Assembly (NCBI GenBank): GCA_018398765.1
Contig: JAHBMJ010000247.1
Span: 1-52,858 of the forward strand
Direction: 5' to 3'
Origin: Chromera velia
Lineage: Eukaryota
Length of the DNA: 52,858 nt
A program made the position numbers and the translations under genes. Positions 1 to 44,553 of the stretch are shown here, in pieces. Position 1 is the first letter of the stretch. Each line of letters begins with the position of its first letter. Below the pieces are notes generated by a model. The model did no database searches. It was not told where the DNA came from and saw only the letters and a list, made by a program, of their open reading frames with translations.

Positions 1-779
1 CTGAATCTGCACTGCTTGCAGGATCTCTTGCTCGCCTTACGAAAGATCTCTCTGCAGTTCCTCCTGAGGAGTGGCTTCCTCTCAAGGGAACAGCCAGAGC
101 GTTGTTGAGAGAGATGGGCCCTGAGGCCCTCAGTACTGCTTTTGCGCTTCTAGATGGACGGTTTTTGCAGGGTGGGGTGGGGATGGAGGTAGGGGAGGGT
201 AAGGGAGGTACGGCATCGCTTTTAACTGGGCGTCCGGGATTCATTGCGGTTGAAGTCGACGACCCGGACCATTTGTTGTTTTCTTCTTCTGAAGAGTGCA
301 GGGAAAGAATGATGAGGTATGTGCGTGACCACGTGAACCTGCCTGCCGACGATGTGCCGAAGGCAGTGGGCAGGGTGTCAAAAAGCGTGCGTGGGTACGT
401 TGCAGATCTGTCTGCCCCAGTTGCTGAGAAGCTAGTGTCTCTTCGTCGTCTTTCAACCGCATCCGGAGGGATGACAGGACAGAGGGGTGGTGCTTCTTCT
501 CTTCACCCTTCCCGAATGCAGGCTGCAGGATTTGTTGATCCTCTCTCTGCCTCCCTGTCAGTTTTGCGACAGGTTCCCTCTCTGCTTCCCGATTCAAAAT
601 CCACGGGGGCGAGACGGCAGAGAAAGAAGGCGCCTTGGCAGATGAGGAATAAGAATGGCATGAGGGCGAACGGGGGTAGGCGAACGAAGACGATTTCAGT
701 CTTGGGTGTTCCTCGTGGTCAAATGAAAAGAGAGGAAGCTGCGTCTCAAATCAAACGCACAGGTACTGTTTATGGATAA
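1..779 (+). CDS. 3' end of a DEAD-box RNA helicase, DDX21/RH3/RH7-like with GUCT domain (5' part outside window)
   Basis: Frame is open from base 3 to TAA 777-779. LSAVPPEEWLPLKGTARALLREMGPEALSTAFALLDG and SLLTGRPGFIAVEV resemble the post-helicase/GUCT region of DDX21-type helicases (LDSVPP...A..L.EE.G.VEALAAALA..SG; SL.....GFVT). Confidence 0.6.
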   Translation, partial: ESALLAGSLARLTKDLSAVPPEEWLPLKGTARALLREMGPEALSTAFALLDGRFLQGGVGMEVGEGKGGTASLLTGRPGFIAVEVDDPDHLLFSSSEECRERMMRYVRDHVNLPADDVPKAVGRVSKSVRGYVADLSAPVAEKLVSLRRLSTASGGMTGQRGGASSLHPSRMQAAGFVDPLSASLSVLRQVPSLLPDSKSTGARRQRKKAPWQMRNKNGMRANGGRRTKTISVLGVPRGQMKREEAASQIKRTGTVYG

Positions 780-1029
780 TCATGGGTAGCTATCTGAACG
801 AGCAGTGTCGAGTGGACACACACATAGACGTGCAAGAACTAGGCGACACACAGTGATTAAAAAACTACTATAGTAGTTAAAAAAAAAAGAAACATGAAGG
901 AAACAAAATCTTGAAAGGTCTGTTTTTCTTTTTTCAAAAAATAAATCAAAATGATGATTGAAGCGCACTCCTAGGCGCACTCAAGCTAAAAGTTTATGAT
1001 TCACGTATGTTTGTAAGTATGTTTCTAGG
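435..1029 (+). repeat. Left arm of a ~0.6-kb inverted repeat (helicase 3' coding end plus 3' flank)
   Basis: Reverse complement aligns to 1878-2444. Both arms encode RLSTASGGMTGQRGG...KRTGTVYG. Confidence 0.95.
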
Positions 1030-1877
1030 CCGGGGCCTAGGCCGGGGCACTGCTTGAATCCGGCGGGCCGCATGCTACAAATCGTCTCTGATCTTGTATT
1101 GTGCCAGTATGAGCCTTTTGCGAACGATCTAGTATGATATGGGCTAGTTGATTTTGTTTAACAGATTCGATCGATCGACTTATTAACGTATCAGGAAAGG
1201 TCTTGACACCTAGGCCTGAGGGGTTGGTCTAAAATGGTCTAAAACGCTCTACTACTGCTCTAGAAAACACTCGATCTACATGCAGGTATCTGAGTGACCT
1301 CTCGACGGTGCAAATCGAGGCCTAGCAGCTAGCCTGGCAGTGGATTGCAGGGCAATCTGGAACATTAATCCTTTCATATCCCATCCTTTCCAAAGACTAA
1401 GGCACCTCTGTCCGGGGTGTGTGCTTAAGACTATTAAAAGCGAAGGGGCCACCTAGTCTTGTAAGCCTTCAAATGCCTCATCGAACCTAGGTTGGGTAAC
1501 AAATTTCTGTATGACATGCCGGGTTAGCCAGAGTGGCAGAGCTTAAGTGGTGGCTCACCAGCTTTAACCTAACTCATTCATTCAAGTTTGAATATTAATT
1601 TAATAATAATTTTCGAGTACTTTAGCTTATTAATCTGAAGTAATTTAAAGTAGCTTAAAGTAATTTAGACTAGAATTTAAAATAGTAAACTGAAATATAA
1701 TTTTAAAAGCTTAACTACTAATTTTAATTGGTTAAACATTAAGTTAAACTAGGTTAAACAGTTACTTAAACTTTGGAGGTGCATATTTAGGCGACCACAG
1801 TGATAAAAAAAAAAAAGAAAAAATCTAGAGAAGCATATATTCAAACTTGTATCATAAGTTGTATGGTAGTATGAGAC

Positions 1878-2444
1878 CTAGTATAACATACCTAGAAACA
1901 TACGTGAATTATAAGCTTTTAGCTTGGGTGCGCTTCAATCATCATCTTTATTCATTAAAAAAAAAAGAAAAACTCACCTTTCAAGATTTTGTCCCCTTTT
2001 TTATTATCACTGTAGACTGTGTGTCACCTAGTTCTGCGTGCATGCACGTCTATATGTGTGTGTCTGCTCGACACTGCTCGTTCAGATAGCTACCCATGAT
2101 TATCCATAAACAGTACCTGTGCGTTTGATTTGAGACGCAGCTTCCTCTCTTTTCATTTGACCACGAGGAACACCCAAGGCTGAAATCGTCTTCGTTCGCC
2201 TACCCCCGTTCGCCCTCATGCCATTCTTATTCCTCATCTGCCAAGGCGCCTTCTTTCTCTGCCGTCTCGCCCCCGTAGATTTTGAATCGAGAAGCAGAGA
2301 GGGAACCTGTCGCAAAACTGACAGGGAAGCAGAGAGAGGATCAACAAATCCTGCAGCCTGCATTCGGGAAGGATGAAGAGAAGAAGCACCACCCCTCTGT
2401 CCTGTCATCCCTCCGGATGCGGTTGAAAGACGATGAAGAGACAC
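1878..2444 (-). pseudogene. Inverted duplicate of the helicase 3' end (right arm)
   Basis: Minus-strand ORF 2100..2636 carries the same C-terminal ~110 aa with a few transitions. Its N-terminus comes from the adjacent tandem repeat. Confidence 0.9.
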
Positions 2445-2475
2445 CGGGCAGGAAGGAGCATCACGTGACAGAATA

Positions 2476-4038
2476 GTCGCAAGAAGGACGGCAAGGACGG
2501 CGTTAGCAACGGTGGAGGCGGAGGCAGGGTGGTCGTATCGGTTGGTGGATGCAAGGGAAGGAAGAGGGAAGGGAGAGCAGGAGGAGACATGCACCATCCG
2601 TATATTTATCGATATTATTATATATTGATGTTGCATGCATAGAGGCCGGATGGAAAAGAGTTTGTAGAGCTAGAAAAAACATGCAACAGACTATGTGCAA
2701 ATACGGAAAATGCACGCAAATTCCTTTCTGACATACAGTGCATGTAGCCTACCACTTTTGTTCCTTTTCCCCTGTGCATTTCTACAAACCGAGCCGGAAT
2801 ATCCGATTTCGCCGATTGTCACCTAAACTGGCCAGGGTACTAGGGGAAGGGCGGGACTACAGCATACACTGCATGCGGCCTACACTAGTGCTAATCATTC
2901 ATGCACAATTCAAAAGAGGACAACGGTTACCATTCTCAAATGACAAGAAAATGACAGTCTGTCTTCAGTGGGAAAGAAGAAGCACTTTAATGTCTGCTGA
3001 CTTGTCATGAAGGTCTACCCGGCACTTGATCAACGCAATGAAGAGAACGGTTGCAAAAAGGACGGCAGGGACGGCATCAGCAACGGTGGAGGCGGAGGTG
3101 GGGTGGTCGTGTCGGTCGGTGGATGCAAGGGAAGAAAGAGGGAAGGGAGAGCAGGAGGAGACATGCACCGTCCGTATATTTATCGATATTATTATGTATT
3201 GATGTTGCATGCATAGAGGCCGGATGGAAAAGAGTTTGTAGAGCTAGAAAAAACATGCAACAGACTATATACGCAAACATAGAAAATACATGCAAATTCC
3301 TTTCTGACACACACTGCATGTAGCCTACCACTTCTGTTCCCTTTCCCCTGTGTATTTCTGCAAACCCAGCCGGAATATCCGATTTCGCCGATTGTCACCT
3401 AAACTGGCCAGGGTACTAGGGGAAGGGCGGGACTACAGCACACACTGCATGCGGCCTACACTAGTGCTAATCATTCATGCACAATTCAAAAGAGGACAAC
3501 CATTGTCAAATGATAAAAAAATGATAGTCTGTCTTCAGTGGGAAAGAAGAAGCACTTTAATGTCTGCTGACTTGTCATGAAGGTCTGCCCGGCAGTTGAT
3601 CACCGCGGTGAAGAGAACGGTCGCGAGAAGGATGGCAGGGACGGCGTCAGCAACGGTGGAGGCGGAGGTGGGGTGGTTGTGTCAGTCGGCCGGTGGATGC
3701 AAGGGAAGGAAGAGGGAAGGGAGAGCAGGAGGAGACATGCACCGTCCGTATATTTATCGATATTATTATATATTGATGTTGCATGCATAGAGGCCGGATG
3801 GAAAAGAGTTTACAGAGAAAAAACATGCAACAGACTATATGTGCAAACATAGAAAATACATGCAAATTCCTTTCTGATACACACTGCTTGTAGCCCACCA
3901 CTTCTGTTCCCTTTCGCCTGCACATTTCTGCGAACTCAGCCGGAATAACCGATTTCGTCGATTGTCACCTAAACTGGCCAGGGTATTAGGGGAAGTGCGG
4001 GACTACAGCATACACTGCATGTGGCCTACACTAGTGCT
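2476..4038. repeat. Tandem array of ~570-576-bp units (~2.7 copies)
   Basis: Units start near 2476, 3050 and 3620. Shared blocks include GCAACGGTGGAGGCGGAGG, TATATTTATCGATATTATT and CCTACACTAGTGCT (CTAG at 2885, 3461, 4031). Confidence 0.95.
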
Positions 4039-5589
4039 CAAGGTGACTGACATTCTCAAACTCCTCAGGGCTGGGCATTGGAAGAGTTTGCCTTCTGGTA
4101 CTCTTGCATTCGCTGCAGGAGATCACCATGCAGTTATGTATGCAGAATTGATCTCATACAAGAGAACATTGCCAACTGTGAGTGAGTACTCTGTTTTGTC
4201 TGTTTATTTTCTTTATACGGCTACTCTGCTCTCACAGAGGTCCTGTCCTTATATGTTTAGCAAAGAAGAGTACAGCAAAATACACAGCAGAAAGCGAAAA
4301 CAAAGAAAAGACATCGCTTTTGCACTCCCTGCGATATAGTCTGTACGCCTACCTGTTTGGTTCTTTGGTTCAGAATCTTTTTCATCTTCTTTCTCGTGGT
4401 TCCGTCGCCCACTGAGGCTGTGGTCGTGTCTGTGCCCTTCTTCTTCTTATTTTTTTTCTTCTTTTTTGAGATCTTTTTCTGCAGAGAGAGAAAACAGGGT
4501 AACATGTTTCGGACCATTCAACACCGGCACTGCCCACTCTCTGCTCGATGAGAAAGTGTGAATCAACACGGAGGGGGGGACAAGGCATTCGTACTGCATT
4601 CAGCGGGGGGTTGGGGAAGAACGGCGGCCCAGAAAAGGGAGAGGGGGAAGGGAAAACGGAAGAGAACTTTAAAATTGAGACTCAGGGGGGAAGATAAAAT
4701 ATCAGAAAAGCAGACTGGATAGAGAGCACTCGGGCGCAGAAACCTCCTTGGATGGGTTGGAGAGGGGCATACCAAAAAATACACTACCACCTACCTAGAC
4801 AGCTGTGGCGGAAGTTTCACCGTTCTGCAGAAACGTAAAACAAATACACGGAAAAAGCAGGACAAGGAGGCTTGATATACAGATTCTCTAAAACTTCACT
4901 AAGGGAAACACGTGGGAACATCATTCCGAGTGCTTCTGGGCATGTAGTGAACCGACCATTCTGAGGAGCTTGAGATTGCATGTGCACCCCTCGATGCCAT
5001 CGGGGCAAAGCACGAAGTCCTCCTCCATGCGAGCTGGCATTGCAAATTCAGAAGGGATCAAAATTCGAAAAAAAGGAGCTCTTTAGCTCTCTATACCTCT
5101 TTTTCCCTCTCTGTTGGACTGCCCTGTTTCTGCGCGATGGCTCCGGCAGTCAACTTTCCGGGGGTAACGTGACGGCCTGTAAGGAGTCCGCTGGGTGCCT
5201 TCTGCTGGAAGGGGAGCTGGGTCAAATGTACAGGACTGCACTTGAGAAGTGCACAATCTCTACGGTAGCCGCAATGTAATAGAAGCTCACGAGGGTCCAT
5301 CGTGTTTTTTCAAAGTAGAAAGCAGGAACTTAATGTGTTTGAAGAGTGTTGCACAGATCTGAAGTCGGAGGATCAGGCTGAAGTTGGAGGATTTGATCGA
5401 TCGAAGTAAGAGGATCCTGAAGTCGGAGGATCTAAAATATACAGTACACTGTTTTTTCATGAAACACCACGAACGGTACGAAAGTAACGAAACGCTGTAA
5501 TACGGCGTAGTACGATGTTTTTTGGCAATGCTGGACCGTTTGAGAGTGTAATTAAGTGTTTTTCAAATCATAGTTAATAAGAAAATTAT

Positions 5590-5891
5590 AGAAAGATTTA
5601 TATGTGATGTAACGGCCCTCAGGCCACAGGCACACAGCACTCTTACGTTACTCCTGTTTCTAGAGGTTGTGTCAACAGAGTCTCTTTCTCAACTTTATAT
5701 GAGCAGCAGTCTCTTGTTTTATCTGACTCCTCAATACGAATTTAATTACTGCAATGCATGCATTTGCATACATGCATTTAATTCTGCATGCATGGATTTG
5801 CAAGATATCCACGCGCTCGGTCTTGGCTCAATGGAAGGACGCCACGCCGCGGAGCCGGTTGGCTGGTGCCGGTCCCACTGCGCGTCTTTCT
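5590..5891 (-). repeat. 3' LTR of the copia element
   Basis: AGAAAGA...TCTTTCT; about 16 substitutions against 10813-11114 (manual count). Confidence 0.95.
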
Positions 5892-5956
5892 CACGGGGGT
5901 CCCCCCCATCTTGTTCAAATCCTTTTCCTTGTTCGTTTCTGTCCTCTTGCTTCTTT

Positions 5957-8900
5957 TCATACAAATTCTTTGCCTGGCCAGCAGGGTTTTGTTAGTGCGT
6001 TACCCATCTGAACTTGACGCCTATACCACATCACTTTCCCCCCAGTCCTGCCCAGTTCTTGGATCACGAAGTCCAACATCCCTTGGGATGTTCCGTCTGC
6101 TGCGACCCCCGATCTCAACTGTTCAAACAGGGGGTTGCAATCGGTAAAGAAAGTGACTAGTGGTTCGGTCCCCCACATCTGTGTTGACAGGGATTTGATG
6201 CATGGGAGATGTTTGACTACGCTTTCGAATGCGGTGGCTTCAGCTGCTGTGCTGCTCCCATGCTTGTGATTATATTTTTCTGTATGCCAGCTTATACAAT
6301 TCTCCCATAGATTCACTAGCTCTAACGCCTTCTCGGGTGTCCATCCTTCCTCTACGAGGAAAATCAGCTAACCCAGCCTCCCACTGTAGGTCTTGCGGGA
6401 ATAGGCGGAGTCAGGCATGATCGCTAGCATCATTCTCTTCAAACGGTTCAGTGCTCTCATACAGAGGGGCTCTTTCTTTTCTTTGAGCATTTCTATTACT
6501 CTGATGCCTGCCCGCACAATCCGTCTGCAAGGCCGTGTGGAGTGATAGCTCAACACATCAGCCCATACCCGTCTGTTTGGTCACGTCCTCACCATCCAGT
6601 GAGGGACTCCGTTGATGCTTCTCATCAGGGGTTCCAACCTTCTTTCCTTCTCTTTCTCCATTGCAGGTTCAAGCTCGGCTGCTCTGACTTCTCCCCCCTT
6701 TCTTTTCTCCCCCAAAACCCTCCATATGGCATCCGTGTTCACCCCTCTGCAGTAGGAGTCTTGGGAGATTTCGGCTGTACTATGGGAGAACATGAAGTCC
6801 ATACCTGCATATTTGATTGATGACTGAGGGGGGAGCTCCCGCAGGTGCCCCCAATCGAACTTTGTCTTCAGAAACTCGATCTCTCCCTCCATCTCCTTTT
6901 TTCCTTTTCTTCCCCCAAACACGTCGTTAATCCAGTTGATCTGAACACTATCAGCAGGCTGTCCAGATTCTCCTACCTTAATCGCGACCCCCGTTTCTAC
7001 GCGTTTGTAGCCTGCCTGTCCTTGCACTTCGGCAAGGCTCTTATCGAATATGTTTCCTGAGTAGGGCATTCCATAGAGGCCCTTCTCAATCAACCGCAAC
7101 TCTCCCAGCTTGATGGCCAGGGCGGCTCTGTGCAGCTCTGCACAGTCTTCATCATTGATGTCATCATAGGGGTTTGTGTCTGGGATTTTAGGCAGCCAAT
7201 CAGGGATGATAACGGCTGCGCATTTCTCGTTTCTGTCAGGGGCTGTAAGGAATGCACTAAAGATGTCTCCGGCGAACAGATTCAGAGAGAAAGTCAAAGA
7301 AAAGATAGCAAAGATCAGAATAGCCTAGACAGAAGGTGTGCCAACATAAGTATCGACCGCCTTCTTGTCCGTGAAACCCTTACCAAAGCACCTCGCTTTC
7401 GACTTTCTGTTGATTCCCTGCCTCTGCCTTCCTTCGTTCTCATCTCCAGTTCTTTTCATCCTTCCTTTCCTGCCTTTGTACTTCTAGGGCTGTTCCCCCT
7501 CTCTGTCGTACTGCAGCCTGTCACCCTTGCCCATGGTTTGTCTTGATTGTGCTGCCTTCTCTTCTTCCTGTCTGTTCTCTTCCTTCTCTTTCTCTACCTG
7601 CTGGGTTTCCTTTTCTTTCCATGTCAGCCTCCAGCCTATTTGCATGACAGAGTCAACTTCCTTCCTATCGACTACCCTGCCCAGAACCCCCTTACCTACA
7701 ATGTTCTTCAACCACTCGTCTCGGCACGCGACATCGAAGTCCCCCCTTGCGACCTCCTCCGGGAGTGCAGGAGTCTGGGTGGACCCCTGCTTGAAGTCAT
7801 CGAGGACCGTGAGTAGATGCTCAGGGTCGGGGCCCAGGTAGAAGCAGTCATGGGTAGGGGCAAGGAAGAAGACGTTCTAAGCGGGAGGTCGCTCATCCAG
7901 GTCAAACCCAGGGGGTCCCCCACTAGATTTCTCTCCATTATCTCTCGTCTCTTCCTGCTCTGCCTCCCTGTTCCTTCTTTCTTCACCCAACTGCCCACCA
8001 GTCAGAGCATCAGGTGCAAGATGATTCTCTCCAAAAAGAGAATCGTTGTCGTTGCTGTTGTCTCTACCCCCCGCAGCTTGAACTTCACCCCCCTCTGCTT
8101 GATCTCCGGATTGTCAGTGCCACCCCCCTGGCTTGATAGCCCCAGAGGGATTTGGGGTATGAACCGAACCGACGTTTCTATTCGGCTTTGAGGGCTGCTA
8201 GCTTGGTTTTTCTGTGGCGGTTCTTTCTTTCCACAAACCCGAGTGGCCCCTTTTCTCCTGCAGGGTTATCGAGGAACGTCATGCCTCTGCGTTCAATGAA
8301 ATCTCCTAGTGGTTCTCCATGAAATTCGGGTGCCTTGTCATATCAGATTCTGCCTGCTACGGCTTTCAAACCTTCCTTCTAGAATTGAACATGATCCCCA
8401 AACGACTCCATAAACTCAATGTGGTCACGCACTCCATCAACGGAGTGGTTACGGGAGTTGAGGGGATAGTCGAAATCGAGGCCACTATACTCATCTAATA
8501 CACTCAGGCAGCATGCATAAGGCCCGTTGACCTCATCATCATTTGGGAACCAGTGATCGAGTTGTATGATTTAGAAGGGCCCACCCGCATCCTCATATTG
8601 GGTGGGGACAGGTGTTAGAGTGGGAATGGTTGTGTTTTTGAGGGAACACAGCCGGCACTCTGTCTCAAGCCTTTTCCAGTCTTCAGTCCTTGCGTGCATC
8701 CCCCTGCTTGCCAGTGTGGGCTCTAGTTTGTCTTGACCGACATGTTCGAATCGTCTGTGATGTGCCCTAAGTTTCTCAAAACTGATTGTTCTCTCTCTGA
8801 TTGCCCATGCCTCCCCAGTCTTCTGCATTGCTTCTTTGACTTCGTCTGCTGTGGGAATGGATGTGGTTGTGAATGAAAGGTTGGAGGTGGCGTCTCCCTT

Positions 8901-10792
8901 AAGATTCTCAACTACCACCTCAACAAGAAAACCCCTCGCGTCTCGCACAATCACGTAGGAGTCCTTTCCCTCACGACGGAGGAGGGTTTCCCCCTCCTCA
9001 TGATCTTCCCACATCAGATAGGGGACTGGGTCTTCAGTCAGATACACCCACAAGAGCAGAACCTTCCATCCTTTCTCTCTCACTCAATTCTTTTGGGCAA
9101 TGCAAGCGAGACGAGAGATCTGAATTTTCTTTAGGGATTTTTGCAGAGCCACTCCGAATGAACCCTCACACGGCTCACTCCAGACTACCATCCCCCCAAG
9201 CTCTTTCTCCCAGCCAAGAGGTGTAGTCGTACATGAGTCTATGTGCATCCGTACAGACAGGCGGCCTGGCGGATCAACTTGACTGACCATTGACTGAACT
9301 TGTTTTGGGGGATCGGGTGGCTTCCTCTCGATCTCGTGCTCTGGAACTACGTACGCCTTGTGCGTCTCCGTCACAAACCAGGGCTTCGGTGCCCTATCAC
9401 GGAACTGAAACGTGATGCCCTGTTATTGTTTGATGATCCCTCCCTCCGCATCCTGAGAATATCACAAAGGGATAGAGAAAAGAGATGAGAAAGGAAGAAC
9501 AGTCATACACATATGCTGTCAAAAATGTTCAGAAAGGTGGCCTGCCTTCTGAAATGCTTTCCCAGTCAGGGCATTCTGCCCCCCAAATCTGCTGACCTCA
9601 TTGTAGTCAGGTGATTGCTCTTAACTTTTCCACTCGTCAGCAGCGTATGCCGCTTTTCCGTTGTATCAACCGGGGCCACCTCCACGCACTGCCTGCATCC
9701 CTCCACGTCCTCTGTACGCCTGTGGACGCCCCCTGCCTCGAGGGTTGGATGAGGGAGATAAAGGGGACTGCTGCTGTGCCTTCGCCTTCTTGTCACGGCA
9801 GCATTGGGTGAAGTGCCCCGTCCTCTGACAGATGTTGCAATGAGCCGATATCCCAGGGCATTCGTTGTATATTAGCCACTCGGCATCATGCCCCCCCTTC
9901 CGACCATATCTGGAGCAGTCTTTCTGTTTATGGGATCCATTCTGTCCCTCTGCTCTCCCCTGCTGACTCTCTTGATAACCTCCTCTTCCTGACCCTGCAT
10001 TGCCCCTGCCTCTGCCTCCCTTGTGGCTTTTCCCCCTCGAGGGAAACCCTGCACCCCCAATAAATGTAACCTCCTCCTTCACAATGGGAGACTTCTGTTT
10101 GGGGGGGTTTGGCGTAGAGCCTTGTGCTTTGACCCAGATAGGGGGGCCACCAGGAGGCTCATTGATAGCGTTGGTATGGGATTTAGCAGTAAGCCTTTTA
10201 GCCTCCACCATCATCTTGTCATAATCCGACAGATCGTCCTCATCCCAATCATTCTCCATCTTCTTCTGGTTATACTGGGGAAAGCAAGCAAACATGGCCT
10301 CTCTTCTCAACGATATAAGGACATCGCTCTCTGCGCCACAATTCTTCATTTCCTTAACCAGGGTCTCAAAAGAGTCTACCATCAGTTGGAAGGATTTATA
10401 TCTGTATCCGTTATCGGTAAGGGTCCGCCACTGTCGAGCGTTCTATTTCTTCTTTGTTCACGAGGTCTCATCCAGAAGTTGTTTCACCTTGTCCCTTAAT
10501 ACGTCTCTCTACTTGACCCACTCAATCTTCCCACCGAAATGAAAAGTGGTGTCGAGAGGGTTTTTCTTTTGGTCAAACAACAATTGAATGGAATTGCCTA
10601 CGATGTAATGGTTACGGGTTGCTGCGTAAATTCTGCAGCATGACAGCTGGCTTGCCACTGAGCAATTTGCTCTTCTGAGGCACCAAACAGTTTCTGATCT
10701 CCTTCAGTCCTGTTTTTGCAAGAATCCCACCAGGGCTGAAAAGTGTTATTCGCTCCTAATACAGGGAAAGGCGAACCACTGGAGTCAGACAT
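5957..10792 (-). pseudogene. copia gag-pol polyprotein with many in-frame stops and a frameshift near 8250
   Basis: Zinc knuckle CNICQRTGHFTQC; protease MHIDSCTT; pre-integrase HHRRFEH...CRLC; integrase QLDH, RI*YDKAPEF, GFVERKNR; RT GDIFSAFL, LIEKGLYGMPYSG, WINDV, T*PN; RNase H DSAY, SSTAAE, TDCNP, NALTKP. Confidence 0.92.
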
Positions 10793-10812
10793 TCTCTCGC
10801 TGGATCATTACC

Positions 10813-11114
10813 AGAAAGATTTATATGTGATGTAACGGCCCTCGGGCCACAGGCACACAGCACTCTTACATTGCTCCTGTTTCTAGAGGTTGTGTCAATA
10901 GAGTCTCTTTCTCAACTTCATATGAGCAGCAGTCTCTTGTTTTATCTGACTCCTCAATCTAAATTTAATTACTGCAATGCATACATTTGCATACATGCAT
11001 TTAATTCTGCATGCATGGATTTGCAAGATATCTATGCGCTCGGTCTTGGCTTAATAGAAGGACGCCACACCGCGGAGCTGGTTGGCCGGTGCCGGTCCCA
11101 CTGCGCGTCTTTCT
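10813..11114 (-). repeat. 5' LTR of the copia element
   Basis: Direct repeat of 5590-5891. The gag ATG at 10792 follows on the minus strand. Confidence 0.95.
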
Positions 11115-11293
11115 ATTATATAAAAATTTGATTTATGATAATTATATATGTATTTAAATTTGAATGTATCATTTTAAGTTTTTAACTCTTTAAAATATTT
11201 TCTTCACAACAAATCTTAAGGTTTTAACAGAAAGATTGAAAACATGTGAAACATAGTGTAGAGCTTTTATAAGTATCACAATTGATGTTATTA

Positions 11294-11324
<31 letters not shown>

Positions 11325-11772
11325 CTGTGTGCTAGCTGATATGCAGACTGAGCTAGCTAAGTTGGAGGATCCGAATTAAGATGGCCCCGTAAAGCATGTG
11401 GCGGGGGGCTCTTAGAACAATCTTAGATCGCCAAAATCGCTTTCGCGCGGGCCATTCGCGGGCCGCATCGAAATCGATCCATGCCGGGCAACAAAAATGT
11501 AATTAGCGGATGCACGGACAACATACGGACAACAGATGGACAACAGCTTTCACCGATCGAGTTGAGGTTTCTCAGTTTGTTTACATCATGAATTGTGTAC
11601 AAACGCGACACCCACAAAGACGGAGGCAACCAAAGTGATGCTCCAATGATGCTCCAGGGCCGGTGCGATGGGATGACCCAGAGGGACTGTCAAAAAGCGG
11701 ACCCCTCAGTCTGACTGTCTCCCTCAGTGGCTTGCCTTGCGCAGACGTTCTTCTTGCTGTCAACAAAGTAGA

Positions 11773-13326
11773 ATGTCCACACAACTTGAAGACCCAGCCG
11801 GAGCGGCCTCTCTGGTGATTCATGGAACCCTGAGTCACCGGCAGGATTCTTGTCAACCCAAGCCTCCACTGCCCCCACCTCCGTGTCCGGTCTCAGATCC
11901 GTCCCCGCATCCGACTCCGATCTCAGGGGGCGGCGGGAGCATGGGAGTGGGGGTTGATACGTATTCTGGACACATTAAGAATGGCGTTGTCCACGGGGAG
12001 GGTGTGCTGACGTACGCAAATGGACATGTATATGAGGGACAGTTTTGCGATGGAAAGAAACACGGAATGGGTACATACCGCCGCACGGACGGGTGTGTAT
12101 TCACAGGGAGCTTTTTAAACGACCTGGCGCAAGGGTCAGCAAGTCTCACTGCTTCACGTCCCATGCATGCAGGTCTCTTTGTTTTCTCGGCGGCCTTCCA
12201 TGCTTTGGAGTTGTTGCTCACCATTTCTCTTTTTGCATTTCTTTTTACCTTTATGCCGAGGGGCACCGGCCTCACCGCGTCTCTTTTCCTTGTCTGCTCA
12301 GTGCTCATGGTTTGGGATTGAATGCCCCGCGCCCCTCTCATTTGTGCACCCACGTCTTTTCGCTTGGGTGTGCGTGCAGCTACGGAGTAATGACGGATGG
12401 CAGGGGATGTGAGATGTTCCGTGGGACATGGAAAAACGACACGGTGAGTGAGGGGGGCGCTTCATGAATGTAAATTAGTTAGGGTATGTGAGGTTCCAGA
12501 ATAGTGTTGACTTGTGTACGAGCATGCATGCGACTTTTCCGGGTAGAACATAGGCAGCACGTTGATTCAGCATTGAGGCAGCCTTCATGTCTAAGGGACT
12601 CCGTCTTGGACTAGTTCATGTACATTCATGCACTGGCTGACGACAAATCCCCGACAATTGTGCGTCTCCCTCTGTCCGTCCGTCGGTCTGTCTGTCTGAC
12701 TGACTGTCTGTCTGTCTGTCTGACTGTCTGTCTGTCTGTCTTTCTGTCTGTACGCACCTCGATCAATCTGTCTGTCTTTCATGAAGAAAAGTAGAGAGAA
12801 GAAAGAAACACATAGTCTGTCTTTCAGGTCCGCTAGCTGCCGACTTTGTCTGAGTTGCTGTGTATTTTTTTTGTCTTCTTTCTTTGTTTCTTTAATTCTT
12901 TCTTTGTTTCTTTGTTTGTTTCTTCCTTCCTTCCTTCCTTCCTTCCTTCCTTCCTTCCGTTCGTTCGTTCGTTCGTTCTTTCTTTGTTTCTTTCTTTCTT
13001 TTTTTCTTTCTTTGTTTCTTCCTTTCTTTCTCTCTCTCTTTGTTTCTTTGTCGTGATGTTCTTTAAATTTCTCTCTGCTGCCTTTTTTTCTCTTTTTGTT
13101 TGTTGCCACAGCGTTCGATCAGGAGGAGAATGAGGGAAAGAAACCATGTAATCTGTCTGTTTGTAGAAAGAAAGAGAAAGAGGGAAAGAAGGAACGATTT
13201 AGTCTGCCTGCCTGCCTTCCTGCCTGCCAGTTTCTGCAGCCTGTGAGCACGTGCGAGGCCGGAGCCCCGGAGCCCCCGGCCCCGGCGCCCGCAGCCGGAG
13301 GTGCAGTGGAAGAGCCCAGGACCAAG
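11773..13326 (+). CDS. MORN-repeat protein, multi-exon (3' end unresolved)
   Basis: MORN units YSGHIKNGVVHGEGVLTYANG / YEGQFCDGKKHGMGTYRRTDG / FTGSFLNDLAQGYGVMT / FRGTWKND. Exons 11773-12134, 12380-12443 and probably 13240-13326, with phase-consistent GT-AG junctions. Confidence 0.85.
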
Positions 13327-14111
13327 GTCTGTCACTGATTAGCTGTCAAGCTTTCTTTGTGGGTCGGTCGGTCGTTCTGTCTGCATGTGTGTCTCTGTTT
13401 ATTTGTTTGGCTGTCTGTCTCTGTCTCGGACTGTCTGTCTATTGCCCACCTCCCCACCTTTTGTCAGAAAAAATCATGACAGCACTGGTTCCCGCCATGT
13501 TGTATGGGAATGTTTGGAAAGCAGTGCACTTTCCTTTCCTTTAAATTTTTTCTCGTTTCTTCTTTTTTCTTGTCTTGAGTCGAAACAGTAGAGGAGTAAC
13601 GTGTGAACTCAGGGACCATGTAGAAGTCTCTCTGGAGGTGTAGAGGCAAGGGGCGCTCATTATGCCACCGAACTTCCACCCTCTGGGTCGGACTCCCCAT
13701 CGATCCGAGTTGCCTTCTTTCTTTTTTGTTCGTTGTGTTCGTGAGGAGACGGAGGGAGGAAAAGCAATGCGGTCTGTCTATTTGAACCCCAGAAGAAGAA
13801 ATCAAAAGGTAAAGGGAACCCCAGAAGAAGAAAGAGGCGATTGCTGAAAACGAACATAGAAGAATGGACCCTAAACGAAAGGAAATGAAAAGAAACGAAC
13901 CTGTCCAGATGGAAAGAATGTGGAAGTGCACAAGCGTAAGCCTGCACTGGGCAGAGAAGTGCCGCAGAGTACGCTTAAGGCCTGGAGCTCTGGTACTCTT
14001 CCACTGAGAGCGCGCCAAAAGAAAAGAAGAAAACAGAAGAGAATGAGCGGAAGGTTCCGTGTGTCTGACTGTCTGTCCGTCCGTCTGTCTGTCTGTCTTT
14101 CTGTCTCTCTC

Positions 14112-14145
<34 letters not shown>

Positions 14146-14339
14146 CTTCCATCTATTGTCTGTCATGCTGTATCTCTGCTTTTCCTGTCTCATTGTTTGT
14201 GTGGAATAATTTGTTTTAAAGATAAACAACGAAATGATATAGTCTGTCTGCCTGTAGGTATCTGTCTGTCTTTCTCTCTACCTGCCCATCCCTCTGTCTC
14301 AGACTGGCTCTCTGTCTCTCTGTCTCCGTCTGTCTGTCG

Positions 14340-14915
14340 ATGACGAGGAATGGAAACGATGACGAGGAATGGAAGTGTCCAAAATGTAAAGCGACCTTCT
14401 CAAGCGAACGAGGTCTGACGACCCACCAAACCCACCCCAACGGAAAGAAGAGGAGCAAAGAGAACATCCAAGCAGCAGCAGTACTCCATGAGCCCCCCCC
14501 TCCCCCGCAGTCTTCTTCGTCTTCCAATCCGGACCCGCACCCTCCCCTCCCCCCTCCCGCCCCTCCCTCTTCTTCCTCCTCTTCGTCGTCGTCCTCCTCC
14601 TCCTCCTCCGCTATCGCAGCAGCATTGCCGAATCCTCCGGCTCCCCCCGAAGACCCTCCCCCTGAAGCCCCACCATTATCGCAACCCCCCTGTAGAAGGT
14701 CGTCACCAGGAAAATCAAGAAGGCTGCACCGAATAGAAGAGAACCAGCCAGAGCCAGATGCAGCCGCCGCCCCCGATCCCATGCCAGCCCCCGTCTCCGC
14801 CCCAGACGCAGCATCCAATTCCGCCTCGGCTTCTGCTTCTAGCGGCATCCCCCACCCAGCTTCCACGCATGACGAAGAGCATCAAAACCCGCCCCCTTCA
14901 GAACAGGAATCCTGA
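14340..14915 (+). CDS. ORF or exon with a C2H2-like zinc finger followed by a Pro/Ser-rich region
   Basis: WKCPKCKATFSSERGLTTHQTH fits C-x2-C-x3-F-x5-L-x2-H; the spacing to the last His is short. Confidence 0.45.
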   Translation: MTRNGNDDEEWKCPKCKATFSSERGLTTHQTHPNGKKRSKENIQAAAVLHEPPPPPQSSSSSNPDPHPPLPPPAPPSSSSSSSSSSSSSSAIAAALPNPPAPPEDPPPEAPPLSQPPCRRSSPGKSRRLHRIEENQPEPDAAAAPDPMPAPVSAPDAASNSASASASSGIPHPASTHDEEHQNPPPSEQES

Positions 14916-15314
14916 GAGAGAGAAGAGGTTCTGGAGAAGGTTTTCGGCCCCACCAGCACCGTCGCTCTTTCGGTATGGGACTTTGAGAGTTTCGTTACCG
15001 CCGAAAGAGTCCTTCCGCAAGATACGAAGACACATAATCAGAAGAATCCCCCTCCGCAGGGGCGCCCCCCCACCGCCCCACCCCTGTCTAAAGACCATGA
15101 CGGTGCCGGTCCCCGCGTGCAGTTTTCTTTGTTGTTTTTTTCTTTTCTTATTTGTTGGTTTTTCTTGTCTTGTCTTCTTTTCTTCTCTTTCTTGTCTTGA
15201 GTGGAAGCAGCAGAGGAGTAGCGTGTGAAACCAGTGATCACGTGAAAGTCTGTCGGGAGGTAGAGAGGCAAGGGGCGCTTAACTCTCACCTTTCGGGCCC
15301 CCTGCCCACGCTGT

Positions 15315-15553
15315 TTGATTGTTGGTGCTGTTCTTTGGTCTTTGTTCTTTCTTTCTTTCTTTCTTTCTTTTCTTTCTTTTTGTCTGTTGTGTTCATGAAG
15401 AAAAGGAGGGAGAAGAAGAAGAAACATATAGTCAGTCTGTATGTCTGTCTGTCTTTGATTGGTGGTGCTGTTCTTTTGTCTTTGTTCTTTCTTTCTTTTT
15501 GTCTGTTGTGTTCATGAAGAAAAGGAGGGAGAAGAAGAAGAAACATATAGTCA

Positions 15554-15589
<36 letters not shown>

Positions 15590-15700
15590 TTGATTGTTGG
15601 TGCTGTTCTTTTGTCTTTGTTCTTTCTTTCTTTTTGTCTGTTGTGTTCATGAAGAAAAGGAGGGAGAAGAAGAAGAAACATACAGTCTGTCTGTCTGTGA
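15315..15700 (+). repeat. Three tandem ~135-140-bp units of an intron-like repeat
   Basis: Repeated TTGATTG..GGTGCTGTTCTTT...GTGTTCATGAAGAAAAGGAGGGAGAAGAAGAAGAAACATA followed by (GTCT)n. Confidence 0.9.
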
Positions 15701-16589
15701 CGCGGGACGTCATATCCTATCGGGGCCTAGGCCCTGGGGCGCTTATCGTGCACCTTTTGGGCGGCCCCCTGCCCACTTTTTCTGACTTTTTTTTTTTTCT
15801 CTTTTGTCTTTGTTAAACTTTGTGTTTTTTTTTTCCTTTCTGTCTGTCGTGTACATGAAGAGAAGGAGGGAGAAAAGAGAAGCATGCTGCATCTCCGATG
15901 CTGTCTGTCTGTCTTCCTGTCCGGCTGTATAGTCTGTCTCCGTTTGTCTGCTTCTGCCTATTTGTCTGTCTCTCTGTCTTTGTGTGTTTGTGCGTCTGTC
16001 TGAATTTATGTGTCTGTGTGTCCATCTGTCTCTGTCTCTGTTGGTTGATGATGCAGGGGCCTCCCGGGAGAGACGCACAGTGGAAGACAGCCGTCGAAAT
16101 TGCCAACGAAGCAAAGAAACGGGGCATCATGACATGGCCTCAAGATCCTTCCCCAGGGACAACAGCCAAAAACGTCACAGCAACGAACATAAAGGGCCAG
16201 AACAAGGCTCACCCCCGGCCACATGAATTTCACAGCTGCCGAGAGGGCGGAGCTCACCCAAGCCTGCGGCTTTACATGGAGAGTGATGAGCAAGAGAAGA
16301 GAGACGAATCTGATGCCGGCTGCCAATGAATACGGTGGGCAGGAGGAGGAAAAGCCACGTTCGCCCAGGCCAGCAGGCGGTCCACGTTAGCCCAGGCCAG
16401 CAGGCTTTACTGACGCAGTTCGAAGGGCAAAGAGTGGAGAAAGGCTCGCAGTGCATGACTGCATGTCAAGCAAGATCCGAGCGATTCGTAGTATCCTTAC
16501 TATCGATCTCCCGACCCCCTCTTCCTTTTTAAAGATTTTGCTTCCAGACGGGAATCGTCTTCCTGGATCTTCTTTCGGCTTAACCAAGG

Positions 16590-17856
16590 ATGGCTGAGGA
16601 CTTGAAGTCGATCAAGGAGACCGATGGACTTTGGACTTTCGACAAGGTCCGCGAAGTGTTTCCGCCTGGAGACGGGGGCGTGGAGCACTGCATCCCCACG
16701 GAGCTTGAAAAACTTCTAGTTTTGATACAGTCGAACCCAATGAAAGATCACCCACTGAAGCAAATGTTGCCTGGCGACGAACCAGCTCCAGTCCGCGCCT
16801 TCTTTGCCAAAGAAAGGATGGACGTCTCGATGGCAAGCAGTGAGCACGTAAGAAGCTCTGAGGGGTGGGGCAACTTGAACGGCCACTGGTGTGTCGCAAT
16901 ACAGTATGGTAACCATCTGATAACAACTGAATGCTGCGGGGTTAGTCAGGCCAATGCCCCCAACAGCATCGAATGCTCTTTGACGGAGGACGGAGTGAAG
17001 GTGAACTTTGGTGGCCTCGACGAGGGCTGTTCCGCCAAGGTCACTGTTACACCCTGGAAAGACGTCGGCCCGCCTGCTGGTTTTGTGGAGCTGACTGCCA
17101 GTCAGTCTCCCACACAGCAAGGCCTACCTGTGCAAGCCACGCCCCTCTTCTTTCTGCTTTGGGCAGTGGCCTTCGTCCGCATTCCGTACAATGCAATGAT
17201 TATCTCCAAGCACAACTGCCAGACCTACGTGAAGGACCTTGTCAAGACCCTCGGGTTTTGCTTCCCCCACCAGACTCTAGACCAGACTAGCAGGGAATTA
17301 AGCTTTTGGCAAAGGTGTGGCTGCTGGTGGAGCAGCAGGTGGCTTAGGAGGTGGGGCAGCAGGTGTGGCAGTGGGTGGGGCATTGGGGGTCTCAGCAGGT
17401 GCGATAGGGATTGGGACAGTAGGTGCGTTAGGAGGTGGAGCAGCAGGTGCAGTAGGTGGGGTATTGGGTGGGGCAGCAGGGGCAGTCGGCGGCTTTTGCA
17501 CTGGCGGTGCTTCGTTAGGTCTTGTCGGTGCGTGTCTTGGTGGAGTTCTCGGTCCACCTGGAAGCGCTGCCGGGGCTGCTGCAGGGGCGGCCATCGGTTC
17601 CTTGGTTGGAGGGGTTGTAGGGGGTAATGTTGGCCTAGGTGTCGGCGCACTCACTTTTGGTGGTCTGGGGGGAATAGTTGGGGGCGCTGGGGGGGGATTG
17701 GGGGGGGGAGCTACCGGAGGTGCTTTGGGAGGAGTAGCAGGAGGCGCTTTGGGGGGAGCTGTAGGGGGTGTAGGGGTGGGAACCGCGGATGCAGTTGTTT
17801 ACGGACCTGCCTTTGGAGGCATTCTTGGGCTTTTGTTCTCTTTCAGAAAACCCTGA
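16590..17856 (+). CDS. Permuted papain-fold (PPPDE/LRAT-like) peptidase with a C-terminal glycine zipper, split by an apparent 1-nt frameshift at ~17300
   Basis: His motif NGHWCVAI precedes YNAMIISKHNCQTYVKDL (His-before-Cys, Y...NCQ pattern). Removing one A in GAATTAAGC joins QTSREL to AFGKGVAAGGAAGG..., a ~180-aa GxxxG repeat ending at TGA 17854-17856. Confidence 0.6.
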
Positions 17857-18699
17857 ACCCCCCTGATGACCTCTAAGATGACTTGCAGTACAGCGCATTG
17901 AGACTGTATAGCTGTTGAGCAATGTGCGTCGCCCTAGGTGTCGCCATGACTCGTGGTCAGGGTCATCAAGTATCATCCAGTGACTGAGTAACATCATCAA
18001 TCTTATTTTATGAAACATCATTTTTGTCTTTCGTCAGACGTATACTATAATTGTGACTATAAAATTGTGACGAAATTAAATTGTTACTGTAATAATCTAA
18101 GATCTGTTTTCAACAGTTCAGCTCAGGTCATCATCATCATCTTAGAGTATCTTTAATAGAGGACTTGTAGCTAAACCTTTTAATCTTTTTTTCTTTTTAA
18201 GTTAGTTTCTTTGCCAGTGTAGTGGTCCCTTATAGGTGGTCCCCGGGAAACTTGAACTAGCCGGGAAAAGCCCAGAACTGCTCAGAACACTAGTCAGAAC
18301 ATGAACATCATCTTAAAGTTACTTAAAGTTGCGTACTCTTACTATGAGATAACACAAACTACTTATGCATAACAATTTGCAATGTTGCTAGCAATGTTGC
18401 AAGAATCAATTTATAAAAATCCTTGATGATCAGGATGATGAAATATGATTCATTCACGATTGACTGGGCCCAGGGTGAAGTACCATAGTACGTCTCGCTA
18501 CGCAAAGTTCTTTCCCCTGTTTGAGTGAAATACCGGTCTGGCAATAGGGTTATAAACTTGAAGCATTACCCCAGACTCATGCATTGCATTACAACTTACA
18601 CTCTAGCCTACACACCAATCAATAACGATGATGATGATGTTGTGGACTACAAAAAACTCGAACAATCCGGAGAGAATGAAGTATTATTTGACTGATGGG

Positions 18700-19669
18700 T
18701 TATCGTGGAGGTGCGACTCGGACGGCTGCCCGATTCACCTGGCGAACTCTCTCTTTCCATTCATCGGACGGCTCCTCGAATTCCAACTGAGGGATACGGA
18801 AGGGATCCGAGACGGGAGGCAATTCTGAACCTCGTGGCCGCCCATTCGCCTGCGTTTCTTGCATGAGGGACCCTGGGGTCTCGCCTGCAAACGGAGAAAC
18901 TCCTGAGAGAAGCCGTGGTGGCAGTCCCAGAACATCACAGCGAATCTCTTCAACAACATCGTCGATGCTCGAAGCCTCTCCCGACCCCCCGATGCCACCC
19001 GGCCCGCCGCTTGTCGAAACCGCGTCTCGTCCAGTGAGGAAAGACATGACTGCGGGATGAGTCACAATTTTTCTCAGAAGAGCGGGAGGGATGTGCCGAG
19101 GGGCGGCGACGCCCACCCCGGCTGCGGACTTCCCCCGGACCTTCTGGGTGATGGCGCCGAGGAAGACCAGACACTGGCTCCGTGTGCAGACTCGGAAGCG
19201 TAAACACGCAAGCCTGCAAAGACAGATGGAGAAAGAGGTGATCGAACAGACAAAGAGACCGCCAGATAGCGGAACAGACAGAGAATGCTGCCCTTTCTCC
19301 CTCTTCTGTCAATGGTGGTTGCGTTCTTTCCTTCTTTCCTTCATTACCCTGTTACTTTCTTTCTGCTTTCGTTGTCCCACTCCCTCCCTCCCTTCCTTGC
19401 CTTCCTTCTGTCTCTCTGTCCGTCCGTCTGTCCGTCTGCCTTCTCTCTGTGTCTCGCACGCATGCAGCCACACAGAGACAGGAAAAAAGGCGGACAAAAA
19501 GGTAAACACGCAGACCAGCTGTTTTTCTCTTTTCCTTAATTTTTTCAGATACAGACCAGACAGACAACAAAGAAAGACTCACACACAAAAGAACGACACG
19601 GTCACTCAGACAATGTGGGCAGGAGGCTCAGAGACAGACGGAGAGACAAAGAAACTTATTCTCTCTTTT

Positions 19670-19740
<71 letters not shown>

Positions 19741-39990: not shown

Positions 39991-40331
39991 GGGAGAGAAG
40001 GAAAGGAGAGGGCGGGAAAGAGAAAACAAACGCAGTTAGGCGGAGACGGACAGATATACGGACAGGCTAAACTTGAGTCTCAGACGTGCGGAGAGAGAAT
40101 GGGTGACGGATGTAAGTGAGGTAAGGGGACTCCGAGGTCTGTAGATTGAGCTGACTTATTTTTCAGGGGGAAAGGGCTGGTAGAAGGTTTGCTAGAAGGT
40201 TTGTGTACTGTGTTAGTGTTTGCTGTTGGACATCTCTTTCCTTTCTTCTGCGTTGTAGTGTCTTCCTTTGGGTGTCTAAGGGCTTCTTTAGGGCTCCTGG
40301 GCGTCTTCCCCCTCAGCCGCCTGGGGAGGGC

Positions 40332-43320: not shown

Positions 43321-44553
43321 TCAGGAGGGCGGTATCTAGCGGAGTCGGTGAGGCTTTTAAGACATAGCCCAGCAGGTCCCCTCCTAGAAATCTTCTCCCA
43401 CTTCAGACACCTTGGAAAGCGTTGCGTACGGTTGAAAAGAAGAAGGGGGTCTGAAGCTCAGGGTAGTCCTTTTCCATATGAGTTCCTTTAAGTTAATTTT
43501 GTTCGGCTTCCCAGGTGGGACGAGGGGGTAGAGAGGTGGGGCAGGCTAAGGAGCATGTAAGGTGGTACTTCCTGCTTCTTCTTTAGAGGGACGTCCGAAA
43601 GGACAGTGCCCTCATTGCTGCATGATGCCTAGGACCGGACTGATCGATCTTGGGGCGCAGTGTTTTGCTAGCTAGTAATTCTGAAGTTCGGCCGCTTTAG
43701 GTGAGCAATCGCTAGCGTACTCCTAGCTTGTAATATAACATGAATGCTCACAGACTGCCCTTTACCATTGGGATACTATGGCTGGCGGGTTAAGTCATCT
43801 CATCATCATCATCATCAGTTGGTGGTAATCAATTCTTGTAAGTTATCCAGTGTTGTTCAATAGCCAGCCGTAGCCAGCATGCATGTGCGGCGATACGTAT
43901 ACGGAATATGCACATTCGCGCCGTGATGGCTCTTGGCATCGTCAACTGCATACGCCGGACATTGATTGTTTAAAGTAGTTTAAAGTTTACATAGGTAGGG
44001 TATAGTAGGGTGTACTTGTGCGCTTGATACTACTTCGTACTACTAGGTATACCAAACGTGGCCAGCCCCCCCCGCTAGTATGTATGGTTAGTGTTTGTCT
44101 GTTTTGTGGCGTCATATAATGAAGTCTTGAACAAAGAGCCCGCATAAGCATGCAGACTCGCGTTCGTGGGAAAAACAGGCCTAAACGCCATCAAAACTAT
44201 GACAAAACGCTCTAGCGTGCAACTGGAGTGCGCGAAAGTGGTAAATTTTGTTCTATACAGCAAATTTGTCTATATTTGTTTTTTTTTTTTACAAGTCAGT
44301 TCGCGCGCATTGCGCACGGAGTCAAGTGAGTACATGCGTGAGTGCGTGCGCCATCGCAGGAACTCACTTACCCAGCGGCAGCTGCAACCCCCATGACGTG
44401 CGTAGACGGGCGGCACGCGGGCCATGCAACGCGCACGGCACCATCCATGCATGGAACACCTAGCTCACATTTTCTGGGATTTTGCGCCTTCCGGGCCCCC
44501 ATGCATTTAGCTCGGCATTTCTTACATTTTTATTCTAGACGGGATTTTATCGA

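What the first reader, a model, noticed from the sequence alone, without database searches (positions are those of the whole stretch)
5590..11114. Copia LTR pair and stop codons diverged almost only by CpA/TpG and CpG transitions
Seen (manual alignment): the 302-bp LTRs differ at 16 sites with no indels. Thirteen are isolated transitions, all at CpG (6) or CpA/TpG (7), plus one 3-nt cluster. Gag-pol decay is mostly stops one transition away from the expected codon: T*P 6581 (CGA->TGA, conserved TRP), RI*YD, G*L 6368 (TGG->TAG) and F*II 8571 (CAA->TAA). The RT catalytic DD reads ND (ATT GAC->ATT AAC). Inference: targeted C->T mutagenesis of repeats at CpR, either RIP-like or deamination of dense CG+CA methylation, rather than neutral drift.
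Basis: partly seen in the sequence, partly recalled or inferred. Interest (0 to 1): 0.8.

Follow-up and report, generated by a model that had tools for sequence, protein, structure and literature searches.

The report
C-to-T hypermutated transposons in Chromera
A copia retrotransposon and neighbouring long repeats in what is most likely the alga Chromera velia have decayed mainly by C-to-T changes, most often at CG and CA, likely because repeat DNA is chemically marked at cytosines, which is unexpected in a species with no listed DNA-acting methyltransferase.

Summary
The LTR observation is exact: 302-bp LTRs, 16 differences, 13 isolated transitions (6 CpG, 7 CpA/TpG), no gaps. The element is a dead Ty1/copia copy; its closest proteins are all Chromera velia. 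The bias is family-wide: Ts/Tv about 9 (555/61 and 641/74 places). Where direction could be read, C:G>T:A beats T:A>C:G about 9-12 fold, equally on both strands. 'Almost only CpR' is overstated: outside the LTRs 38-50% of this family's C>T changes are at CpT/CpC; the order is CpG > CpA > CpT > CpC (odds 3.8 and 2.3 over CpY). The stop-codon contexts are largely forced by the genetic code. Three other long repeats share the pattern; short repeats among genes do not (Ts 37, Tv 42). It fails the classic RIP tests. A published table lists no RID, DIM-2 or DNMT1/3/5/6 for Chromera, only four DNMT2. Best reading: repeat-focused cytosine methylation with deamination, enzyme unknown (0.5). A genome-wide bias is not excluded (0.3): no single-copy polymorphism control was available.

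The parts
5590..11114 (-). Ty1/copia LTR retrotransposon, dead copy, 5525 bp, member of a multicopy family
   Evidence: LTR pair; empty-site joint 5584 to 11115 skipping 5530 = element + 5 bp in 3 of 4 runs; summed contig depth about 20 times that of single-copy neighbours (a rough guide only)
10813..11114 (-). 5' LTR, 302 bp; carries the T/A state at 9 of the 13 isolated transitions
5590..5891 (-). 3' LTR, 302 bp; carries the T/A state at 4 of the 13 isolated transitions
5585..5589 (+). target-site duplication ATTAT, left copy
   Evidence: joint (one base of ambiguity)
11115..11119 (+). target-site duplication ATTAT, right copy
9597..10775 (-). gag region with a zinc-knuckle-like Cys/His motif; start not defined
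   Evidence: translation; aligns with C. velia proteins P0018, P0025, P0027
9453..9596 (-). predicted 144-nt intron (GT...polypyrimidine tract...AG) between gag and pol; holds 2 of the 22 stops
   Evidence: sequence; gene models P0025 and P0027 join across it; no RNA evidence here
8113..9452 (-). protease, HHCC zinc finger and integrase core, cut by a deletion at 8113/8112
   Evidence: loose end at 8112 in other copies
5957..8112 (-). linker, reverse transcriptase (catalytic DD reads ND at 6928) and RNase H region, 5 internal stops
   Evidence: RVT_2 by features and structure for relative P0003; Pfam on this copy only E=0.051
5892..5915 (-). polypurine tract next to the 3' LTR; this copy has 7 extra bases at 5894
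40331..43322 (.). second direct-repeat (LTR-like) pair 40331-40654 / 43003-43322 with the same spectrum: 24 transitions, 2 transversions
2470..4038 (+). tandem array of about 574-bp units with the same spectrum: units 1/2 differ by 32 transitions, 5 transversions
435..2444 (.). element with 392-bp inverted arms: 8 transitions, 0 transversions
12682..19913 (.). short repeats among genes, used as a weak control: 37 transitions, 42 transversions over 9 pairs

Best explanation
Long transposon-type repeats in this genome lose cytosines to thymine on both strands after insertion, likely because repeat chromatin carries (or until recently carried) cytosine methylation in all contexts, heaviest at CG then CA, which deaminates or is mis-processed to T. 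Shown: the spectrum, its direction, strand symmetry, context order and presence in four repeat families. Inferred: that it is confined to repeats, and that 5mC is the intermediate. Unknown: the enzyme; the only listed candidates are the four or five DNMT2-clade/DNA_methylase genes. The effect is slow sterilisation: about 6% of this copy's cytosines are gone, giving 13 confirmed stops and a dead RT active site.
For: Family Ts/Tv 555/61 and 641/74 places. Of the 40 best-supported sites where the family differs from this copy (40 shown, 738 more not shown), 35 are C:G>T:A, 4 reverse, 1 transversion; strands 18/17. RT changes in four sister copies: 52 C>T of 887 chances vs 5 T>C of 973 and 5 transversions of 4451; 7 of 69 ambiguous or multi-step (P=3e-12). 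PR-IN private changes: 26 unambiguous C>T, 4 more compatible, 0 T>C, 2 multi-step, of 32. Context odds over CpT+CpC pooled over three data sets that exclude this LTR pair: CpG 3.8 (P=1e-10), CpA 2.3 (P=5e-5). CpG first and CpA second is the order reported for de novo methyltransferases (PMC3386304, passages); the alveolate Symbiodinium has CH methylation aimed at transposons (PMC5890265, passages). Targeting: short repeats among genes give Ts 37/Tv 42 vs 79/8 in four long-repeat pairs (P=4e-10); the rest of 1-20000 gives Ts/Tv 1.75-1.8 vs 9 in the element (subtraction). A 9-12:1 bias implies about 10% GC at equilibrium, yet genic blocks are 50-53% GC and fourfold sites of six host ORFs 51-62%. 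TpA observed/expected is 0.55-0.80 in the four repeats vs 0.32-0.38 in genic blocks.
Against: No methylation data were seen. The DNMT table lists Chromera with no DNMT1/CMT/DIM2/DNMT3/DRM/DNMT4/DNMT5/DNMT6/orphan, only DNMT2 x4 (PMC12344493 supplement row), and that paper says DNMT2-only species have undetectable 5mC. CpG depletion is mild (0.55 in the element, 0.66-0.79 in genic blocks). The short-repeat control is low-complexity, several alignments are 67-76% identical and may be partly spurious (the five pairs at 80% or more give Ts 21/Tv 16). A single-copy stretch (18000-18700) is also AT- and TpA-rich (GC 0.37, TpA 0.86), so the TpA contrast may be transcribed versus untranscribed DNA. 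Protein-based counts see only amino-acid changes and include four changes shared by two copies.
Confidence: 0.5

Rival explanations
1. The whole genome has a strong spontaneous C:G>T:A bias with a mild CpG/CpA preference; dead transposons simply record it without selection, while genes keep their GC through selection or biased gene conversion.
For: No DNA-acting DNMT is listed. The bias hits all four contexts. AT-rich single-copy or intergenic stretches exist (18000-18700 GC 0.37; 47500-48268 GC 0.28). No single-copy polymorphism was available: the long single-copy contigs of runs X1 and X2 match the window with 0-1 differences.
Against: Short repeats among genes show Ts 37/Tv 42, far from the 11-13% transversion share expected at Ts/Tv 9 even with saturation. 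Tens of kilobases of intron-rich genic DNA sit at 50-53% GC against an equilibrium near 10%.
Confidence: 0.3
2. An active RIP-like process recognises long duplications by homology and converts C to T enzymatically, using a non-RID methyltransferase or deaminase.
For: Long repeats (300 bp and up), whether dispersed, tandem or inverted, are hit and short ones are not, as with a length threshold. CpA is raised 2.3-fold. RIP-like patterns without a RID homologue are reported in Pucciniomycotina (PMC3318451, passages) and a mitotic Dim2-dependent form in Zymoseptoria (PMC8016269, passages).
Against: TpA/ApT 0.59 and (CpA+TpG)/(ApC+GpT) 1.44 are on the non-RIP side of the usual cut-offs (recalled: about 0.9 or more, and about 1.0 or less). 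No sharp target motif; CpG exceeds CpA, whereas the Zymoseptoria mutator is over 98% CpA. No strand runs (17 runs in 35 sites, P=0.36). Most laid family contigs are 90% or more alike (658 of 736). RID/DIM2 not listed.
Confidence: 0.13
3. The changes arise during retrotransposition, by deaminase attack on single-stranded cDNA or by RT error.
For: It is a retroelement and the changes are C>T/G>A.
Against: Strand symmetry (18/17; family C>T 205 vs G>A 167); the two LTRs, identical at insertion, diverged by the same spectrum; inverted and tandem repeats with no sign of an RNA stage show it too.
Confidence: 0.03

Closest known systems
Methylation-linked C>T decay of transposons (plants; Symbiodinium CG plus transposon-focused CH methylation, PMC5890265)
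   Same: Both-strand C:G>T:A excess in repeats, all contexts, CpG highest; Symbiodinium is a fellow alveolate.
   Different: Those organisms encode DNMT1/3/5 or orphan DNMTs; Chromera is listed with DNMT2 only. 5mC is not shown here.
Repeat-induced point mutation, Neurospora crassa (RID, DIM-2)
   Same: C:G>T:A in duplicated DNA, raised CpA>TpA, stops that kill transposons.
   Different: CpG is the top context here, CpT/CpC are also hit, composition indices are not RIP-like, no strand runs, low load, no RID/DIM-2 listed.
Dim2-dependent mitotic mutator of Zymoseptoria tritici (PMC8016269)
   Same: A methyltransferase-linked C>T excess in repeats that needs no sexual cycle.
   Different: There over 98% of C>T are at CpA; here about 25-45%, and no Dim2 is listed.
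TpCpG hypermutation of Pucciniomycotina (PMC3318451)
   Same: Repeat hypermutation inferred from alignments in organisms with no RID homologue found.
   Different: That has a sharp trinucleotide target; here no 5' preference was seen in 35 sites (C 13, T 9, A 7, G 6).
Ty1/copia LTR retrotransposons
   Same: LTRs, 5-bp TSD, gag-PR-IN-RT-RH order, RVT_2-type RT.
   Different: Very divergent sequence (Pfam misses the close relatives), a predicted gag-pol intron, and AG...CT rather than TG...CA ends.

Membership tests
Ty1/copia LTR retrotransposon | two direct LTRs and a short target-site duplication | tested here: met
   302-bp LTRs, 5-bp TSD, empty-site joint
Ty1/copia LTR retrotransposon | integrase upstream of RT | tested here: met
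   PR-IN at 9452-8113 precedes RT at 8112-5957 on the minus strand
Ty1/copia LTR retrotransposon | RT of the RVT_2 family | tested here: met
   relative P0003 (89% identical): 30 of 30 feature hits and the structural hits carry PF07727; direct Pfam hit on this copy weak, E=0.051
Ty1/copia LTR retrotransposon | TG...CA termini (usual, not universal) | tested here: not met
   AGAAAGA...TCTTTCT; one base of boundary ambiguity does not restore TG...CA
RIP (Neurospora type) | C:G>T:A dominates changes in duplicated DNA | tested here: met
RIP (Neurospora type) | CpA is the dominant target | tested here: not met
   CpG 3.8, CpA 2.3 over CpY; CpY changes are 25-50% of C>T outside this LTR pair
RIP (Neurospora type) | high TpA/ApT and low (CpA+TpG)/(ApC+GpT) (cut-offs recalled) | tested here: not met
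   0.59 and 1.44 in the element; 0.74-0.95 and 1.16-1.32 in the other three repeats
RIP (Neurospora type) | strand-coordinated tracts (recalled) | tested here: not met
   17 runs in 35 sites, P=0.36; sparse sample
RIP (Neurospora type) | RID (DNMT4) and/or DIM-2 encoded | not testable with these tools
   no genome held; a published table lists 0 for both
RIP (Neurospora type) | confined to repeats, homology- and length-dependent | tested here: inconclusive
   long repeats hit, short genic repeats not; no single-copy SNP control
RIP (Neurospora type) | premeiotic timing | not testable with these tools
   needs crosses
5mC-deamination decay of repeats | C>T rate follows methylation contexts, CpG highest, both strands | tested here: met
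5mC-deamination decay of repeats | 5mC present on the repeats | not testable with these tools
   no methylome seen
5mC-deamination decay of repeats | a DNA-acting C5 methyltransferase in the genome | not testable with these tools
   published tables: DNMT2 x4 only; 5 DNA_methylase genes, 0 MBD

The most novel reading that the evidence does not exclude
Chromera velia runs a transposon-directed C-to-T mutator without any recognised DNA methyltransferase class: one or more of its expanded DNMT2-clade paralogues has moved from tRNA to DNA and marks or deaminates long repeats, a convergent RIP-like genome defence in the closest free-living relatives of apicomplexans.
Probability: 0.2. Interest if true: 0.85.

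Novelty: new variant of a known kind. Interest (0 to 1): 0.55.

Why it matters
Repeat-focused C>T hypermutation is known from fungi (RIP) and from methylated genomes, but no report for chromerids turned up in the searches run here. Chromera is catalogued as DNMT2-only, a class held to have no DNA methylation. A methylation-shaped footprint on its transposons makes two open questions directly testable in a culturable alga: whether DNMT2-clade enzymes can act on DNA in vivo, and whether RIP-like defence exists outside fungi. In practice, LTR dating and gene models from transposon ORFs in this genome are skewed by the bias.

Tried and rejected
No whole genome was held, so genome-wide LTR pairs and DNMT genes could not be examined. 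No RNA holder was listed; this says nothing on expression. Runs X1 and X2 match the window on long single-copy contigs, so they gave no polymorphism control. One homologue search was lost to a wrong reading frame (no hits, uninformative). A host-paralogue control failed: 2 of 10 window ORFs were in the collection and both are single-member clusters. Pfam found nothing on the element's separate ORFs or its close relatives. No tRNA gene in the window, so the primer-binding site is unassigned. Stop-codon context was rejected as evidence for CpR targeting (code-forced; P=0.045 for 13 of 13). cDNA-stage editing rejected on strand symmetry. An early idea that the stop at 9623 is the natural gag end was dropped: gene model P0025 has Gln there. 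The 'TIR inner' pair (827-1023 / 1885-2052; 11 transversions, 9 transitions, heavily gapped) was left out of the long-repeat total, as was tandem pair 2/3 (24 Ts, 4 Tv; not independent of pair 1/2); the first goes against the reading. Three look-ups of earlier findings returned nothing. Literature searches: searches gave 0 papers; one search gave 18 (16 listed, none on a Chromera methylome by title and abstract start); one search gave 9 (8 listed, all fungal); one search gave 1 (diatom); one search gave 714 (20 listed, none reporting RIP-like mutation in alveolates). The library lacks most subscription papers.
Full report
Source. The closest proteins to the element are all from Chromera velia CCMP2878: 10 of 10 RT hits (64-93% identity) and 7 of the 8 protease-integrase hits looked up. 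The organism is therefore inferred, not given. No assembly was held.

The element. It lies on the minus strand at 5590-11114. The LTRs (5590-5891, 10813-11114) are flanked by a 5-bp duplication, and contigs of three of four runs join 5584 to 11115, skipping 5530 bases, so it sits inside another repeat whose other copies are empty. Summed contig depth is about 20 times that of single-copy neighbours, a rough sign of some 20 copies. Order is gag, a predicted 144-nt intron (9596-9453; gene models P0025 and P0027 join across it), protease, integrase, RT, RNase H region. The RT is RVT_2-type. A deletion at 8113/8112 removes about 100 codons or more of integrase C-terminus and shifts the frame.

Check of the observation. 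The LTR counts are exactly as stated; P=5e-4 for 13 of 13 CpR given LTR composition. Of 22 in-frame stops, 13 align with relatives (6 Gln, 4 Arg, 3 Trp) and all are one C>T/G>A step away; 2 lie in the predicted intron, 5 have no aligned relative, 1 is out of frame after the deletion and 1 is the probable natural end. That all 13 are transitions is strong (P=7e-9), but their CpR context is weak evidence because 79% of C>T routes to a stop are CpR by the code.

Family-wide spectrum. Laying contigs of other copies on the element gives 555 transition and 61 transversion places in X1, and 641 and 74 in X2. The 40 best-supported rows (738 not shown) are sites where nearly all other copies differ from this one: 35 C:G>T:A (CpA 15, CpT 9, CpG 7, CpC 4), 4 reverse, 1 transversion; 18 on one strand, 17 on the other, no runs. 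Amino-acid changes in four sister RT proteins, read from this copy's codons, give 52 C>T (CpG 16/121, CpA 13/183, CpT 13/254, CpC 10/329), 5 T>C of 973, 5 transversions of 4451, 7 unassigned. Private PR-IN changes give 26 clear C>T (CpA 8, CpC 8, CpG 5, CpT 5), 4 compatible, 2 multi-step, no T>C (this set was not in the pooled odds and shows the weakest CpR lean). Three other long repeats give CpG 25/132, CpA 23/186, CpT 10/180, CpC 6/156 and 7 transversions (unpolarised). Pooled odds over CpY: CpG 3.8, CpA 2.3. So the signal is a 9-12-fold directional C>T excess in every context with a CpG>CpA>CpT>CpC gradient; the all-CpR LTR pair is its tail (P=0.02). About 185 A>G/T>C places over some 2950 cytosine sites suggest about 6% of this copy's cytosines have changed, in line with 5.3% LTR divergence (inference).

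Targeted or genome-wide? For targeting: nine short repeat pairs among genes give 37 transitions and 42 transversions versus 79 and 8 in the four long pairs, and saturation cannot explain it; the non-element part of 1-20000 has Ts/Tv 1.75-1.8 by subtraction; genic blocks are 50-53% GC where the bias would lead to about 10%; TpA is 0.55-0.80 of expectation in repeats against 0.32-0.38 in genic blocks, and removing 75-90 TpA brings the element to the genic level. Against: the control repeats are low-complexity and partly poorly aligned; one gapped inner arm pair was transversion-rich; single-copy AT/TpA-rich stretches exist; and no strain polymorphism was available. Targeting is favoured, not shown.

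Mechanism. Classic RIP fails on context, indices, strand runs and load (RIP description from PMC12543289, passages; cut-offs recalled). The Zymoseptoria mitotic mutator is over 98% CpA (PMC8016269, passages). cDNA editing fails on symmetry. The gradient looks most like broad-specificity cytosine methylation followed by deamination; Symbiodinium aims CH methylation at transposons (PMC5890265, passages) and de novo enzymes favour CpA among non-CpG sites (PMC3386304, passages). The difficulty, and the interest, is the enzyme. The supplement of PMC12344493 lists C. velia with four DNMT2 and nothing else, Vitrella with none (rows seen); the supplement of PMC5890265 lists five DNA_methylase genes and no MBD (row seen); PMC12344493 states that DNMT2-only species lack detectable 5mC (passages). 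The table is not error-free (it lists no DNMT2 for Plasmodium falciparum, though PMC8561396, seen only as a listing, studies one), so a missed enzyme or inflated count is possible. Chromera has about 30 Mb of transposons against 1.5 Mb in Vitrella (PMC4501334, passages). Open sub-cases: a DNA-acting DNMT2 paralogue, an unclassified enzyme, or a recently lost one whose footprint remains.

Novelty. No paper linking Chromera to RIP or a methylome was found (open-access library only). PMC1557398 (passages) mentions RIP only as a comparison for Tetrahymena. The phenomenon is a known kind in a new lineage, with an unexplained enzyme gap.

Verdict. Observation right for the LTRs and named codons, overstated in its 'almost only'. 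Interpretation partly supported: real repeat-associated C>T hypermutation, not a member of RIP, most likely methylation-linked (0.5), genome-wide bias 0.3, RIP-like homology trigger 0.13. Interest 0.55.

Noticed in passing
window 5590-5596 and 11108-11114: The LTRs end in 7-bp inverted repeats AGAAAGA...TCTTTCT, i.e. AG...CT rather than TG...CA. A survey of 50 plant genomes found the first T invariable among non-canonical ends (10.1101/137141, passages; its supplement is closed). Seen in one copy; the boundary is ambiguous by one base.
   Followed up: partly
window 10795-10812 (minus): The stretch after the 5' LTR looks like a primer-binding site; it may match an internal initiator-tRNA fragment as in hemiviruses (recalled, untested) or start with TGG if the LTR is one base shorter.
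   Followed up: no
window 9453-9596 (minus): Predicted in-frame intron between gag and pol, supported by two C. velia gene models.
   Followed up: partly
window 5538-5589 and 11115-11330: The element is nested in a very AT-rich (20% GC, no CpG) multicopy repeat whose other copies are empty.
   Followed up: partly
window 13341-16008: Short repeats with summed depth hundreds to thousands of times single-copy, linked to TCTG microsatellites, with an ordinary substitution spectrum; class unknown.
   Followed up: partly
window 40331-43322: LTR-like pair around a 2.35-kb interior; three ORFs of 141-183 aa had no Pfam hit; possibly a non-autonomous element.
   Followed up: partly
window 435-2444: 392-bp inverted arms at 98% around an AT-rich core; possibly a foldback/DNA transposon derivative.
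   Followed up: partly
window 44903-47518 (+): Leucine-rich-repeat gene in three overlapping ORFs in different frames (LRR_6 hit on the last); may be frameshifted or spliced.
   Followed up: no
window 50638-51795 (+), 11677-12321 (+), 48268-50151 (-): Host genes: animal-type haem peroxidase (E=2e-55), MORN-repeat protein, CCCH zinc-finger-like protein.
   Followed up: no
PMC12344493 supplementary table 1: C. velia is listed with four DNMT2 genes and T. gondii with two, against none in Vitrella.
   Followed up: no
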